Positions 43,401 to 49,400 of a stretch of DNA of 64,000 nucleotides are shown here, in pieces. The position numbers are program-made. The DNA is taken from the NCBI RefSeq assembly GCF_045037415.1, contig NZ_CP173438.1. One strand, given 5' to 3'. The DNA is from Escherichia coli. Lineage in GTDB: Bacteria; Pseudomonadota; Gammaproteobacteria; Enterobacterales; Enterobacteriaceae. Every line of letters starts with the position of its first letter. The first letter of the stretch is position 1.

Positions 43401-46400
43401 CCAGTGCCAGCGTCCTTCAAAACAGGCTCCGTCCCCCTGGCTGCAGAATCCGCTGAACCAGATGCACGCCTCTTCCATAAACCTGCCGTTGCTGAGCCGG
43501 AAAACGCGCTGGCGGAGGTCAATTCCGAAAATGCCACAGACCGCCCTGAAGTCCTCATACACGTTTTCATACCAGTTGCTGTCAGCATGATGCTGACGGT
43601 ACCAGTCGCGGGCTTTTTCCTGTGCGGTGGAGGATAGCTCATGCAGTGTATACACGGTGGTGGTGATAATTCTGCTCATCAGAATGCCCTTACTGACTCA
43701 GTTCAGAGTGACGCTCATCAGCCGGACATACGGGCCAAAACTGTCCTTACGGCGTTCAGCAAACACGGCCAGCACACCGGGAATATCCTGCACTTCACGA
43801 CCGGTATACGCTTCAGCACTGCCGTGCCAGCGGTATTTGCCGGTACAGAACGGAAAAAGACGGGATGCAGGATGCTGACGGTGAATACGCATGGCTTCGC
43901 CACGGGTGATGATTTTCATAGTGGGATACCTCTGAAGACAGAAGATAAAAGTGAAAACAGGTGTGATGTGGTTGTGACGGGTTAAAGCAGACCATGTTCG
44001 GCAAAGGAGAAAACCTGGCTGCCACCGACTATCAGATGGTCCGGCACCCGGATATCCACCAGGCCCAGTGCCTGTACCAGACGTTCGGTGATAAGCCGGT
44101 CTGCCTTACTGGGTGTGACTTCACCGGACGGGTGATTGTGCGCCAGCACCACGGCTGCGGCATTGTGATACAGGGCGCGTTTAATCACTTCCCGGGGATG
44201 GACTTCCGTGCGGTTGATGGTGCCGGTGAAGAGGGTTTCACCGGCAATCAGCTGATTCTGGTTATTCAGATACAGCACCCGGAATTCTTCACGCTCCAGT
44301 CCCGCCATGTTCAGAATCAGCCATTCCCGTGCCGCACGGGTGGAGGTGAAGGCCACGCCGGGTTCATGAAGATGGCGGTCCAGGGTTTTCAGGGCCCGCT
44401 GAATGAGGCTGCGCTCTCTGGTTGTCATTTCTCCGGGCAGAAAGGAAATCTGTTGCATTGTTCCGGCCCCCTTTCAGTCAATAATGCGCATAATGGCGCT
44501 GCATTCCGGATGCTGCAGGGCGTAATCCCGCAGACGGTAATAATGAACCGTCATGGCATAACACTCCGTACGGCAGGCGTGATGACTGTACGTCATCAGA
44601 CAGGCGGCAATGCCGGCGGCTTCCGGGCTCATTTCAGCGCGGTTACCGTTCATGGCATTGAACAGTACCCATGTTTCGTCATCATAGTCATCCGGTTCAG
44701 GGGCCATAAATGCCCCGCCGTTGTTCAGGGTGTACAGATTCCAGATACCACCGCAGTAGTTTTCGCACAGACGGTCCATCCAGCCGAAGACACGGGGCTC
44801 CAGGGTCACCCACTGTGGAATGAGGCCAAAATGCTGCGGCCAGAAGCTGATGCGCTGTTCATCAGGGACTATGGTGGCAACCAGTTGTTGCAGGCCAGTC
44901 TCCGGTGCACAGGCCGAAGAGGTGGTGTTCTGAGACAATGTTTTCATGTATGAAATCCTTGTAATGTGAATAAATGAGAGGGAGTAAAGGTCGGGAGCTG
45001 GCAACATCACGTTCATCACTGACCGTGAGACCCGGTAATATCAGGGATGAATGATATTCGGCTGAAATTCCGGACAGCCGTACGCGTAACCGTTCCGGTC
45101 ACAGACGGATGGCCAGATGCCATTGCCTGTACTCAGTCTGCACAGACTGATTTCTCCGGGACGGTAAAGCAGACGGGTACACCAGGCGCACAGGTCATCA
45201 TCAGAAATGGAACGACACCCCGGCAGCGCCTCCGGGGCGTCGGGTGATTCTGGTGCCTGAATCACGCCTTCAGGGACATGCTGCATCAGCGCAGGCTCTC
45301 CAGCAGCGTTTCTGCCATTACCCACAATGCGCGGTTGAGCTTAATATCGGTGTCGATGCTGTGAATGGCACGGGTGTGGATACGTTTTCCTTTTGCACTG
45401 CGACCGGAAATCCCGCCTTTCAGCATATTCTCCTGGATGGTCTGATAAGTACTCCACAGGTCCTTACCGTAATCCTCCCGGCGTCGTGGCGTCAGAATGT
45501 CGGCGGTGGTGACGGGCCGATGTTCGTCACCATAACGGTAAGTCAGTGCCGCCTGTGCCAGCGCCTGGCGTGCCGGTGGCGGCAGAATCAGCGACTGCAT
45601 GGCATCACGCTTCTCCTCTATCCGGTCAAACACGCCCACCACCTCGTAAGCCCCTTCAATGACTCTGTCCACCACATTTCCCCGGTGCGGAACACGCACT
45701 TCCCCCAGAGACTGACCACAGACGCATCCGTTCTGGCAGACGAACCTGAAGTAACCCGGCAGCATCTGGTAGCTGGAGGTACCGTCATGAGAGTTGAGCA
45801 GAATAATTTCAGGGACATGTTCTCCGTTTATCTCTCCGTTACGGCGCAGACGCAGCATGTGTTTGGTGTATTCCCGGCGGTCCGGGTCACGTACGCGGGT
45901 CTGGCAGGCGAAGAATGGATGAAAGCCTTCCCGCTGCAGGCTTTCCAGTACGGTGATGGTGGGGATGTACGTATAGCGTTCACTGCAGGAGGTATGCCGG
46001 TCTTCACCGAAAATACCCGGTACATGGTGCATCAGTTCTTCGTGTGTCAGCGGACGGTCACGGCGTATCTGGTTTACATAACCAAAACGACTGGTTAATC
46101 GCATGATTTGCTCCTTATCGGTGGTTAAGATTTACTGGTGTAATAAATGAAAAAAGCCACGTCTCCCGGAGAAGACGCGGCCTGACGGGTGAAATGAATG
46201 AGGTTTATTGTCTGAGAAGCCTTTCACTGGCGAGCCACGCATTAAGCGGCTTTCCGGCAACAATGGCTGGGGCTGTATTTACCTTTGATATTAATAATGT
46301 GCAGAGAAACGCATGGTTTACTCCTCAGGTTTTAAGTTTGTCCAGAGCCACAACGACAGGTTTTCCGGATGTGTCGATGACTCCTACCGTCGGTACGCCA

Positions 46401-49400
46401 TTTTTGATTTCGAAGAACGGTTTGTTGCTACCTGAGCACAGCTGGTTGTCTTTGTATTCGAGCATCTGTTCTTTCCCGGTTTTCAGGTTAAGTACCGAGA
46501 CAGTGTAGTCGTAACACCAGGCACCACCACGTTCAAGCACGAAAACATAGCTGTTATCTTTATAGTTGAACGGATTCTTCGTCTGGCAATTCATACCGTC
46601 AATCTCAGTACAGGAAAACGCCTCTGTAGTATTAACGTATTTGATGTTGTTTGGCAGTTTTACTTGTTTCGCCGCAGCGAAGACAGAGAACAGAATAGTT
46701 ACAGCAACGAGTAAAGTTTTGATAAAAGTTTTCATGACAGACTCCTTAAATTAGTTAACCGCAGCTACGTAGTTTTTCACCAGATACGCGAATTCATGCA
46801 CGCCAATTTCGCCGAACCAAACCAGGTAGGCCGGGTCATCTAAACCAAAGTAGCGGTAGCCAACGACTTCATGGGTTTTTGGGTTATAGAGTGTTACGAT
46901 AAAGTCCCAGCCGCAGGTATTGGCTTTGCAACCGTCGCCCTGGAGCCAGACTGTACCGTTAATGGTTACTGGCGTTACGTTTCCGCCAGGGCCATCCATA
47001 TACCCGCCTTTACCGAACATGCCGCTCAGTCCGACCGGTTTTAATGCTTTGTCAAGCGCAGCTTTGTAGGCAGCGTCACCTTCGTACAACTCGTACGTTG
47101 CGTATTACCGTGAAGGAGATCGGTGAGTAACATCGATGGAGATCGGTTCGTGTCACTTTCACAGAACCGTTTTTAAATTACCTTCACTGATCTCCTTCGG
47201 TCAACGGAGATTGTATTTTCCGCATTGATTCTCCTTTAAGTTCGATCTTGATACTGCCATGAACCAGTCGATCTAGGATGGCATCCGCATGTGTGGAGTC
47301 TCCGATCATTTTGTACCAGTTTTCCACCGGCAACTGGCTCACTACGATGATTGAGCCTCGTTGGTACATCAGATCCACTATTTCCAGCAGGTCGCTACGC
47401 TGTTCTGATGAGAGAGGTTCCAGCCCCCAGTCATCCAGAAGCAGCAGATCGCTATTATTCAGCCTGGTCAAAAGTTTGCTGTATCTTCCATCAGCATGCC
47501 CCTGATAGCACTGTTCCATCAGCGCTTTAAGGCGATAATAGTAGACCTTGTATCCCTGTCGGCAGGCATTATGACCAAGTGCACATGCCAGGAACGTTTT
47601 ACCGCTGCCGGTGGCCCCGGTCAGTAAAATATTTTGTTTCAGGGTTAACCAGTTTCCCTGACTGAGTGAACGGATGAGGGCCCTGTCCAGCCCTCTATTG
47701 TTACGATAATCCAGCTTTGATAACTCAGCATTAAGTCTGAACCGTGCATGTTTGATCAGACGCTCTGCCTTCCTGTTTTCACGGCAGGTTAGTTCTTCTG
47801 CTGTCAGTAATGACAGGCGTTCTTCGAAGCCCAGCTCCTGGTATGTGCCCGGTTGAGCAAGTTGCTTTTTAAGCGCATCACGGAAGCCGGTGAGTTTAAG
47901 TGCGGTCAGTTGTTCGTAAAGATGATTCATCATTGGATCCCGTATCAGTGGTAATACTCACTGCCGCGTACGTTTTCGTGTTCCATCGTGGATAACAGAT
48001 CTGGTTTTGGATCCTGAACAGGTTGTTTATCCAGACCTTTTTCCAGGATCGATTTAATACCTGACAGACGCCATACCTTTGTTTTCAGAGCTCTTGCACA
48101 TGCTGCATTAAGTCTGGCTTTACTGTATTTTTTATGAAGGTTCAGGAGTCCAAGGCAGAAGCGATAGCTTTGTTCCGGATGTGGACGAGAGTTCAGTATA
48201 TGAAGCACATAACTATGAGTTTCACTGCCTATGTGCCCCGCCCATTCCAGAAGACGCTCTGGCGTCCAGGTGGCATGCTGTCGATGAGCTTCAGGCATGT
48301 GCTCGTTGCGGGTACTGTAGCCATAAGTACGCTTGCGCGGGTGCACAGCAACCTCCTGCCCCTGATTGAAGAGTCTTACCAGTTCTCCGGAGATCCATGC
48401 TTCCAGTTGCTGGCCTAACAGCGAACATGGAACCGAGTAGTAATGTTTGTCGATTTCCACGTGGTAATCGGCATGAACTCTGACTTTCTTCACCAGGGTG
48501 TAACTGTAACTGGCTTCAGGAAGAGGCTTCAGTGCGGGTTTATCAAGCTGGATGAAGAGTTCTGCACGTGAATAACCCAACTTCTGCATTATTTTGTTAT
48601 TCAGTCTTTCCAGCAACTCCCGAATGCGCTGATTAAGCGATGCAAGGCTGTAGAAGATCTCATGCCTGATTCGGGCCATGATCCAGCGTTCAACAACCTG
48701 AACGCCAACTTCAGCTTTGGCTTTATCTTTCGGTTTACGTGGCCGCGCAGGCAAAACTGCGACATTATAATGCTCAAGCATCTGCTGGTAGGTAGGGTTA
48801 ACGTCAGGATCATACTTACATGCCCTGGATGTGGCGCTTTTCAGATTGTCCGGAACAACAAGTTCAGGAACGCCACCCAACCACTGGAAGCAGCGAACAT
48901 GACTCATCACCCAGTCTTCAAGCTGCTGAGACCAGGTGGCCTCTGCCCATGTGTAACTTGATGCCCCGAGAACAGCTACGATGACCTGAGCAGTTCTTAT
49001 TTCTCCGGTCTCAGGGTCGGTAACGCCAACGGTAGGTCCACAGTAATCAACGAAAAGTTTTTCGCCAGCTTTATGTACCTGACGCATTGATGGTGAAGTG
49101 GTTTTGAGCCATTCACGGTACATCCGGCAGTAATGGTTATAGCTGTAAAAACCGCCTGGATTACGCTCACAGTATTCTTCCCAGAGTAGCTGCAGCGTCA
49201 CGCATTTATTACGCAGTTCCCGGTGTACTGTAGCCCAGTCAGGCAGAGAGTGCTTCTTCATCTTAACCTGGGTCTGAAGGAACGCATGTTTTAGTTTTGT
49301 ATCATCCCATCCTGTAGGTAAGGGCCACTGCTTTATGCCAAGTTGAGCCGCCCGATTAGCATATCTGGATACAACGGAAGGGGAGATTGCAAGACTACGA

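What the first reader, a model, noticed from the sequence alone, without database searches (positions are those of the whole stretch)
45041..46735. Small island ORFs of unknown function: a Cys-rich 94-aa ORF and a 136-aa secreted protein
The 94-aa ORF has six cysteines and overlaps the DUF932 gene. The 136-aa ORF has a clear signal peptide and four cysteines and sits between the DUF932 gene and the IS21-split gene. Both are AT-rich, island-specific and unclassifiable by eye. Together with the IS21-split gene, the island seems to carry at least two exported small proteins.
Basis: seen in the sequence. Interest (0 to 1): 0.3.

Follow-up and report, generated by a model that had tools for sequence, protein, structure and literature searches.

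The report
Two small conserved island genes
Both small ORFs are real, widely conserved genes: one is a cytoplasmic cysteine-rich (probably zinc-binding) protein coupled to the DUF932 gene, and the other is an exported protein that travels with a lysozyme-inhibitor-like gene in a two-gene cassette shared with giant phages, possibly for phage exclusion.

Summary
The window is an E. coli ST131 (EC958-type) CP4-44-like island. Both ORFs exist, but the reading needs correcting.

**Cys-rich ORF.** It is best read as an 81-aa gene (45041-45286, minus strand). Its ATG overlaps the DUF932 stop codon (TGATG). It is 57% G+C, so not AT-rich, and has no signal peptide. It is conserved at 52-65% identity in Yersinia, Mixta, Klebsiella, Enterobacter and Salmonella, always in the order DUF932, small ORF, antirestriction gene. 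Three Cys are invariant and a fourth nearly so (CxxC…C…C). dN/dS is 0.2-0.3. It matches no known family.

**136-aa ORF.** It has a signal peptide and four invariant Cys, and occurs in 44% of complete E. coli genomes. It is the second gene of a ~950-bp cassette. The first gene, the one split here by ISEc12, has an Ivy (lysozyme inhibitor) fold with a CKANTC loop. The cassette is 76% identical in DNA to part of a ~220-kb jumbo phage, and more distant homologues sit in SPN3US-like phages (phrog_8968). A 2024 preprint reports that knocking down the Ivy-like gene slightly raised T7 fitness.

**Likely role (inferred).** Periplasmic inhibition of phage or other peptidoglycan hydrolases. Interest is modest.

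The parts
45041..45286 (-). 81-aa Cys-rich (CxxC…C…C) small cytoplasmic protein gene (WP_001164966.1).
   Evidence: PGAP annotation. 184 homologues with E<=0.001, mostly ~80-87 aa, across Enterobacterales. C33, C36 and C49 invariant, C71 >=90% conserved. Same TGATG-type 1-nt overlap with DUF932 in L007-L012. dN/dS 0.20-0.31.
45286..46104 (-). DUF932 gene, whose stop codon overlaps the start of the 81-aa gene.
   Evidence: Pfam PF06067, E 2.4e-51. Annotation.
46154..46183 (-). Intrinsic-terminator-like hairpin (13-bp stem, 4-nt loop, U6) that closes the exported-protein cassette, about 50 nt upstream of the DUF932 start.
   Evidence: Scan. Fold: -23.5 kcal/mol, z = -5.59, 0 of 200 shuffles as good.
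46325..46735 (-). 136-aa exported protein gene (WP_000846703.1): signal peptide, 4 invariant Cys, all-beta model. Second gene of the cassette.
   Evidence: phrog_8968, E 5.8e-43. Homologues. Jumbo-phage homologues at 30-36% identity. AF2 model pLDDT 67.6, pTM 0.66. dN/dS 0.18-0.22 against its closer relatives, 0.29 against SEGD1 gp186.
46751..47098 (-). C-terminal fragment of the Ivy-like exported protein gene, first gene of the cassette. It carries the GCKANTCGW loop. 15 nt separate it from the 136-aa start.
47099..49679 (-). ISEc12 (IS21 family, istA and istB), 2581 bp, flanked by a 5-bp target duplication TACGT (47094-47098 and 49680-49684).
   Evidence: Annotation. Comparison with the uninterrupted SK1144 sequence.
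49680..49819 (-). N-terminal fragment of the Ivy-like gene, from the probable true start (MKRLHTLMLF…, ATG at 49819). PGAP extends it to 50014.
   Evidence: Many family members are 160-161 aa. Island/phage DNA homology starts 7 nt before this ATG.

Best explanation
The finding covers two unrelated genes in two transcription units.

**(A) The Cys-rich ORF.** It is an 81-aa cytoplasmic protein, translationally coupled to the DUF932 gene and followed by the ArdB/KlcA-type antirestriction gene.
- Shown: it is a conserved, selected, syntenic gene of the DUF932 / antirestriction / RadC / DUF987 / CbeA / CbtA block of CP4-like islands. It is optional, since some islands lack it. It has three invariant Cys and a fourth nearly invariant, in a CxxC…C…C pattern.
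- Inferred: the four Cys bind zinc, and the protein acts as a small partner or adaptor of DUF932 in that block. The ArdB and RadC neighbours suggest the block acts when the element enters or establishes in a cell.

**(B) The 136-aa ORF.** It is the second gene of a ~950-bp bicistronic cassette of Sec-exported, disulphide-bonded periplasmic proteins.
- Shown: gene 1 is an Ivy-fold protein with a C-x4-C loop (CKANTC here, CKAHAC in other alleles). It is cut by ISEc12 in this ST131 genome. Fifteen nucleotides downstream lies the 136-aa all-beta protein, followed by a terminator-like hairpin.
- Shown: the cassette is shared, at 76% DNA identity and with sharp boundaries, with a ~220-kb SPN3US/Asesino-like jumbo phage. 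The 136-aa family belongs to an array of small signal-peptide proteins, alignable though only 14-26% identical, in those phages. A second, divergent pairing of the two families (about 33% identity each) exists in another E. coli island.
- Inferred: the cassette works in the periplasm like T4 Spackle or host Ivy. It would bind and inhibit peptidoglycan hydrolases, such as phage tail or internal-virion lysozymes or lytic transglycosylases, and so reduce infection. The 136-aa protein would be a second binder or inhibitor, or a partner of the Ivy-like protein.
- Consequence here: gene 1 is inactivated in this genome. The 136-aa gene is intact, but it may be expressed only by read-through from the IS.
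For: **(A)**
- 184 homologues with E<=0.001; the full-length ones from other genera are 52-65% identical.
- The order DUF932, small ORF, antirestriction gene, with a 1-nt overlap, holds in Yersinia, Mixta and Klebsiella.
- dN/dS is 0.20-0.31.
- Subthreshold RecR Cys4 zinc-finger hits occur in 9 of 32 members.

**(B)**
- Signal peptides and invariant Cys are present in both families.
- The 15-nt spacing is the same in the island and in the phage.
- DNA homology between island and phage runs from 7 nt before the ATG of the 160-aa form (Met67 of PGAP's 226-aa ORF) to 32 nt after the 136-aa stop.
- The phage identity of L015-17 rests on its SMC-like protein, 60-69% identical to Erwinia and Salmonella jumbo phages, and on gene order matching SEGD1 gp184-190.
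- Second pairing: P0212 lies next to a 312-aa protein whose N-terminal half is Ivy-like (BLASTP E 2e-27).
- Literature: CRISPRi knock-down of the O121 orthologue hypo_04657 (CKANTC loop) increased T7 fitness (bioRxiv 10.1101/2024.04.20.590424). Its sgRNA maps upstream of both cassette genes, so the knock-down would be polar on the 136-aa gene.
- Precedents: Spackle inhibits the T4 gp5 lysozyme in the periplasm (PMC7677548). Ivy proteins inhibit lytic transglycosylases in vitro, though E. coli Ivy does so only weakly (PMC10139938).
Against: - No biochemical function is shown for either ORF.
- The Ivy assignment is below Pfam's cut-off (14-17 bits against 21) and rests on a model with pLDDT 63.5. 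The inhibitory His of CKPHDC is Asn in this allele.
- The preprint's clonal EOP effect is very small (1.09, 1.5 and 1.0), and T7 is not a jumbo phage.
- 136-aa family members also occur without an Ivy-like neighbour: L003 next to a GYF_2 membrane protein, and Seoulvirus phages next to other small signal-peptide proteins of the array.
- For (A), zinc binding and any link to DUF932 function are inferences. Some islands have DUF932 and antirestriction genes without the small gene.
Confidence: 0.4

Rival explanations
1. The 136-aa protein, with the Ivy-like protein, is a periplasmic immunity or accessory factor for the adjacent dynamin-like / RdcB(YjcZ) / patatin-like phospholipase operon. It would protect the cell envelope from that module's lipase.
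For: The cassette, or a 136-aa family member, sits directly downstream of dynamin / YjcZ / patatin in several islands: the window and EC958, SK1144, L003, L013/L014 and L022.
Against: The same cassette occurs in a jumbo phage with no patatin gene nearby, and P0212 sits in an island without one. DNA homology between island and phage stops at the cassette edges. L003 keeps the patatin flank but carries a different cassette. No export signal was looked for on the patatin protein.
Confidence: 0.12
2. The exported proteins are host-interaction or virulence factors of pathogenic E. coli. For example, the Ivy-like protein could protect against animal lysozyme, with the 136-aa protein as another secreted factor.
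For: Canonical Ivy inhibits C-type vertebrate lysozyme (PMC2267010, PMC10139938). The window comes from the pathogenic ST131 lineage.
Against: The closest relatives outside E. coli islands are phage genes, including phages of the plant pathogen Erwinia. The cassette is in 44% of all complete E. coli genomes rather than one pathotype. ST131 carries it with gene 1 destroyed by an IS. The loop His that canonical Ivy uses is absent in this allele.
Confidence: 0.12
3. The 81-aa protein is itself an antirestriction or anti-defence protein, as some database records name it, acting independently of DUF932.
For: Some UniProt and NCBI records call it 'antirestriction protein'. It always lies immediately upstream of an ArdB/KlcA-family gene in a block also carrying RadC.
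Against: It has no similarity to the Antirestrict family (PF03230) or to any other Pfam, PADLOC or PHROG family. The names are unsupported by any cited test and may come from adjacency.
Confidence: 0.15
4. The Cys-rich ORF is a chance ORF overlapping the 3' end of DUF932, and the 136-aa ORF is a decaying remnant with no function in this genome.
For: Neither has a curated family. The cassette's first gene is IS-disrupted here. Some islands lack the small ORF.
Against: Cross-genus conservation with invariant Cys, conserved synteny and start position, and dN/dS of 0.2-0.3. The 136-aa gene is 100% identical to the allele in the uninterrupted SK1144 locus.
Confidence: 0.04

Closest known systems
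Ivy (inhibitor of vertebrate lysozyme; Pfam PF08816; PDB 1GPQ, 1XS0, 1UUZ). This applies to the IS21-split partner gene, not to the 136-aa ORF.
   Same: Small Sec-exported periplasmic protein. The predicted fold's best PDB match is Ivy. A disulphide-closed C-x4-C loop aligns with Ivy's CKPHDC loop.
   Different: About 20% identity, and below Pfam's cut-off. The loop is CKANTC or CKAHAC. There is an extra N-terminal Cys pair. It is carried on phages and islands rather than being a core gene. No activity has been tested.
T4 Spackle (Sp), a periplasmic superinfection-exclusion protein that inhibits the gp5 tail lysozyme (PMC7677548)
   Same: A phage-encoded small periplasmic protein. The proposed mode of action is the same: block an incoming phage's peptidoglycan hydrolase.
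phrog_8968 and SEGD1 gp184-gp187, the array of small signal-peptide proteins in Seoulvirus (SPN3US-like) jumbo phages
   Same: The 136-aa protein matches phrog_8968 at E 5.8e-43. It is 30% identical to SEGD1 gp186, with the same length, signal peptide and Cys pattern.
   Different: None of these phage proteins has a known function. The E. coli island version is much closer (75%) to an uncultured jumbo phage (L015) than to the deposited phages.
Cys4 zinc-ribbon or zinc-finger small proteins, e.g. the RecR Cys4 finger (PF02132)
   Same: CxxC plus two further conserved Cys in an ~80-aa cytoplasmic protein. Weak RecR_ZnF hits in 9 of 32 members.
   Different: The Cys spacing (C-x2-C-x12-C-x21-C) is unlike RecR's. 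All hits are below threshold. Metal binding is untested.

Membership tests
Ivy (PF08816): IS21-split partner gene | Score above Pfam's gathering cut-off (21 bits) | tested here: not met
   13.8 bits for the window-type protein. 8 of 11 family members hit Ivy below threshold, best E 0.0077. The divergent L005 relative scores 16.9 bits.
Ivy (PF08816): IS21-split partner gene | Ivy fold | tested here: met
Ivy (PF08816): IS21-split partner gene | Exported, with a disulphide-closed C-x4-C protruding loop | tested here: met
   Signal peptide and invariant C102 and C107. The loop aligns with CKPHDC of 1gpq/1xs0.
Ivy (PF08816): IS21-split partner gene | CKPHDC motif with the inhibitory His | tested here: not met
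   CKANTC in the window and in O121. CKAHAC, CKSNAC and CKANAC in other alleles. CERGNC in the L005 relative.
Ivy (PF08816): IS21-split partner gene | Inhibits C-type lysozyme or lytic transglycosylase | not testable with these tools
   Needs a biochemical assay.
phrog_8968 (jumbo-phage small exported proteins): 136-aa ORF | Significant match to the family profile over its full length | tested here: met
   E 5.8e-43, residues 1-129 against profile positions 1-131 of 135. tblastn gives 29 jumbo-phage records.
Known periplasmic lysozyme inhibitors (PliC/MliC, PliI, PliG) and T4 Spackle: 136-aa ORF | Sequence or fold similarity to a family member | tested here: not met
Sec-exported periplasmic protein: 136-aa ORF | N-terminal signal peptide (basic n-region, hydrophobic core, AxA site) and no lipobox | tested here: met
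   MKTFIKTLLVAVTILFSVFAAA|KQ, read directly from the sequence. It is conserved in island and phage homologues. No dedicated predictor was available, and export itself is untested.
Cys4 zinc-ribbon-like small protein: 81-aa ORF | Four conserved metal-ligand Cys, including a CxxC knuckle | tested here: inconclusive
   C33, C36 and C49 invariant and C71 >=90% in 32 sequences. RecR_ZnF hits are subthreshold only.
Antirestriction protein (ArdB/KlcA, PF03230): 81-aa ORF, as named in some records | Match to the Antirestrict profile | tested here: not met
   No Pfam hit for the protein or for any of 32 homologues. The true PF03230 gene is the next one (44474-45019, E 4.5e-37).

The most novel reading that the evidence does not exclude
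E. coli CP4-like islands have repeatedly captured a small cassette of periplasmic proteins from jumbo phages: an Ivy-fold protein plus a member of a new beta-rich, disulphide-bonded family. There were at least two captures. The cassette would act as a periplasmic anti-phage barrier that neutralises virion-borne peptidoglycan hydrolases. That would make it a domesticated superinfection-exclusion module and a new kind of envelope-level defence, present in nearly half of E. coli. The 136-aa family would be a previously unrecognised class of peptidoglycan-hydrolase inhibitor or co-inhibitor.
Probability: 0.2. Interest if true: 0.6.

Novelty: new variant of a known kind. Interest (0 to 1): 0.35.

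Why it matters
**Cassette.** If it really blocks phage peptidoglycan hydrolases, it would be a simple, widespread envelope-level phage defence in E. coli, present in 44% of complete genomes. It would also be a case of islands borrowing a giant phage's own exclusion genes. That bears on phage-therapy host range, because ST131 has lost gene 1 to an IS.

**81-aa protein.** It is one of the few handles on the very common but unstudied DUF932 / ArdB / RadC block of CP4-like islands.

As it stands, both remain conserved hypothetical proteins. The practical gains are corrected gene models, a family context and a testable hypothesis.

Tried and rejected
- **Curated families.** Pfam, NCBIfam, PADLOC and PDB sequence searches gave nothing significant for either ORF. 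The only weak hits were an SH3b_T domain, an OmpA-family protein and a sialidase, all judged chance.
- **Exhaustive HMMER.** A profile of the mature 136-aa family against 1.84 billion representatives gave only 16 hits. Two are true remote relatives (P0211, P0212). P0210 looks like a low-complexity artefact.
- **Possible fusion protein.** The C-terminal half of the L005 312-aa protein looked by eye like a 136-family domain fused to Ivy. hhalign did not support this (probability 0.13), so I claim only adjacency.
- **Ivy-like gene in deposited phages.** tblastn found none.
- **Literature.** There is nothing on the WP accessions or phrog_8968. DUF932 papers give no function. A search on SPN3US signal peptides was uninformative.
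- **K-12.** The CP4-6 region between yafZ and yafX holds other genes and has no annotated equivalent of the 81-aa gene. The rest of K-12 was not checked.
- **Not done.** The 81-aa protein was not structure-predicted, because both prediction jobs went to the 136-aa and Ivy-like proteins.

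
Full report
**Where the window comes from.** Bases 45000-47200 are 100% identical to E. coli ST131 chromosomes such as EC958 and JJ1887. In EC958 the region is a CP4-44-type island beside yeeW and cbtA. On the minus strand it reads: dynamin-like gene (split by an IS66), RdcB/YjcZ, patatin-like phospholipase, a hypothetical gene split by ISEc12 (IS21 family), a 136-aa hypothetical, DUF932, an 81-aa hypothetical, antirestriction, RadC-like JAB, DUF987, a 214-aa hypothetical, CbeA, CbtA, DUF5983.

**Checking the observation.**
- Both ORFs are at the stated coordinates with the stated Cys counts.
- The 94-aa ORF starts at a GTG with no Shine-Dalgarno sequence. PGAP and every homologue start 13 codons later, at the ATG at 45286.
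- That ATG overlaps the DUF932 stop (TGATG) and follows a GGAGA.
- The Cys-rich gene is 57% G+C and the 136-aa gene 43%, against 48.6% for the window. 'Both AT-rich' is therefore half wrong.

**The 81-aa gene.**
- The word-index search returned 184 proteins with E<=0.001. Many are 80-87 aa, from E. coli, Enterobacter, Citrobacter, Klebsiella, Salmonella, Yersinia and Mixta, at 52-65% identity outside E. coli. None has a Pfam domain.
- In an alignment of 32 sequences, C33, C36, Y41-E45 and C49 are invariant and C71 is nearly so. The motif is PGCRSISDDDLCAWCxHLxYRPGExSLC…WPSxCDxDGYAQSCP. The N- and C-terminal ends vary.
- There is no signal peptide.
- In Yersinia (L007), Mixta (L008/9) and Klebsiella (L010-12) the gene begins on the last base of the DUF932 gene and is followed by a PF03230 antirestriction gene.
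- dN/dS is 0.20-0.31 wherever dS is measurable.
- It matches 2592 of 5426 complete E. coli genomes, with a median of two copies.
- It is optional: several islands join DUF932 to the antirestriction gene without it.
- It has no curated family. The only hint is subthreshold RecR Cys4-finger hits in 9 of 32 members.
- The 'antirestriction protein' label in some records has no sequence support.
- My reading is a small Cys4, probably zinc-binding, cytoplasmic protein made in fixed ratio with DUF932. Its role in that block is inferred, not shown.

**The 136-aa gene is real and exported.**
- It has a typical Sec signal peptide (MKTFIKTLLVAVTILFSVFAAA|KQ, no lipobox) and four invariant Cys.
- It matches 2365 of 5426 complete E. 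coli genomes.
- dN/dS against its closer relatives is about 0.2.
- It is a very narrow family. The word-index search found only Escherichia-type sequences at 62% identity or more.
- A full HMMER pass over 1.84 billion representatives added just two true remote relatives, P0211 and P0212. Both sit in CP4-like islands.
- It matches phrog_8968 at E 5.8e-43.
- tblastn finds it at 30-36% identity in 29 jumbo phages: Seoulvirus/SPN3US-like phages of Salmonella and E. coli, and Erwinia phages.
- In SEGD1 the homologue is gp186. It sits in a run of small signal-peptide proteins, gp184-187, that align with it at only 14-26% identity and share two invariant Cys.

**It is the second gene of a mobile two-gene cassette.**
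- The IS21-split neighbour is intact in ST131 strain SK1144.
- ISEc12 occupies 47099-49679 and has a 5-bp TACGT duplication.
- PGAP calls the intact gene 226 aa. However, many family members are 160-161 aa and begin MKRLHTLMLF…, which is a signal peptide.
- The 160-aa gene and the 136-aa gene are 15 nt apart in every E. coli island examined.
- They are also 15 nt apart in three ~220-kb contigs (L015-17) and in a 222-kb 'plasmid' of Enterobacter ludwigii.
- Those elements are jumbo phages. Their SMC-like protein is 60-69% identical to those of Erwinia phages Asesino and phiEaH2 and of Salmonella SPN3US-like phages. Their gene order matches SEGD1 gp184-190.
- DNA homology between the island and this phage is 76% over 960 bp. 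It runs from 7 nt before the 160-aa gene's ATG to 32 nt after the 136-aa stop, and no further.
- That fixes both the likely true start and the cassette edges.
- A strong terminator-like hairpin follows the cassette (46183-46154, z = -5.6), just before DUF932.
- At the same island slot, L003 carries a different pair: a GYF_2 membrane protein plus P0211.

**The partner gene is Ivy-like.**
- By eye the loop GCKANTCGW recalls Ivy's CKPHDCG.
- Pfam Ivy hits are subthreshold in 8 of 11 members.
- A family profile aligns the loop onto PDB Ivy chains, at E 1.2.
- In L005 the remote 136-family member P0212 is followed by a 312-aa exported protein. Its N-terminal half is 33% identical to the Ivy-like protein (E 2e-27) and also touches Pfam Ivy (E 0.0074).
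- The two families are therefore neighbours in two pairs that have diverged to about 33% identity. That argues for a functional link.
- A fusion with a 136-like domain in that protein is not supported.

**Evidence from the literature.**
- A 2024 preprint (bioRxiv 10.1101/2024.04.20.590424) independently noticed an Ivy-like protein in E. coli O121, hypo_04657, with a 'CKANTC' loop.
- It reported that CRISPRi knock-down raised T7 fitness and plaquing.
- Its sgRNA matches the orthologous ORF in STEC strain 2015C-3163 exactly. It matches the window at 49931-49950 with two mismatches. This is the same gene.
- The guide sits upstream of both cassette genes, so the knock-down should also silence the 136-aa gene.
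- The clonal EOP values are small: 1.09, 1.5 and 1.0.
- T4 Spackle shows that a phage periplasmic protein can exclude phages by inhibiting a tail lysozyme (PMC7677548).
- Ivy proteins also inhibit lytic transglycosylases in vitro, although E. coli Ivy does so only weakly (PMC10139938).

**Conclusion.**
- The finding is two ordinary-looking but genuine conserved hypothetical genes that belong to different units.
- The Cys-rich gene is a probably zinc-binding partner of DUF932.
- The 136-aa gene is half of a phage-derived periplasmic cassette whose other half is Ivy-like and is broken by an IS in this genome.
- A periplasmic role against peptidoglycan hydrolases, and so in phage exclusion, is the best-supported mechanism. 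It remains inference from fold, neighbours, phage origin and one weak knock-down phenotype.

Noticed in passing
window 49820-50014 (minus strand); L002 9935-10129: PGAP's 226-aa model of the Ivy-like gene adds 66 N-terminal codons ahead of the signal peptide. Many family members are 160-161 aa, and island/phage homology begins 7 nt before the internal ATG. The long start is therefore probably an annotation artefact. The 2024 preprint's 'helical domain' and its sgRNA lie in this extension.
   Followed up: partly
window 47099-49679: ISEc12 (IS21 family) is inserted with a 5-bp TACGT duplication, in the same orientation as the cassette. Read-through or an outward promoter could still drive the C-terminal fragment and the 136-aa gene. 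Roughly 400 complete genomes, mostly ST131, seem to carry this split allele; this is a rough estimate from the 425 records in the >=99% identity band.
   Followed up: partly
L015-L017; NZ_CP134650.1 (L019): A 222-kb circular 'non-mobilizable plasmid' of Enterobacter ludwigii, and three ~220-kb metagenome or isolate contigs, look like genomes of an undescribed SPN3US/Asesino-like jumbo phage. This phage carries the Ivy-like + 136-aa pair. No phage in the deposited collection (INPHARED release of 31 Aug 2025) has the Ivy-like gene.
   Followed up: partly
L005 8476-9414: A 312-aa exported protein lies next to the remote 136-family member P0212. It has an Ivy-like N-terminal half (loop CERGNC) and a Cys-rich C-terminal half of unknown type. 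The C-terminal half looks 136-family-like by eye, but hhalign does not support this.
   Followed up: partly
L003 7192-8414; L008 3952-4491: The slot between the patatin gene and DUF932 is a variable cargo site. In L003 it holds a GYF_2 (PF14237) membrane protein plus P0211 instead of the Ivy-like + 136-aa pair. A GYF_2 gene also occurs upstream of DUF932 in Mixta.
   Followed up: no
window 43035-43679 (minus strand): A 214-aa hypothetical protein lies between DUF987 (yeeT) and cbeA. It has no Pfam hit but matches phrog_5162 (E 5e-37). It is present in some CP4-like islands (L013) and absent in others (L022).
   Followed up: no
window about 52119-54870 (EC958 locus L001 19120-21871): An IS66-family element (ISEc23) splits the dynamin-family gene of the dynamin / RdcB / patatin operon. 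This island therefore carries two IS disruptions within about 8 kb.
   Followed up: no
window 45213-45242 (minus strand): A GC-rich hairpin (11 pairs, 9 G-C) lies inside the variable N-terminal coding part of the 81-aa gene and was flagged as terminator-like. The T-tract is poor and that part of the protein is not conserved in other genera, so it is probably incidental.
   Followed up: no
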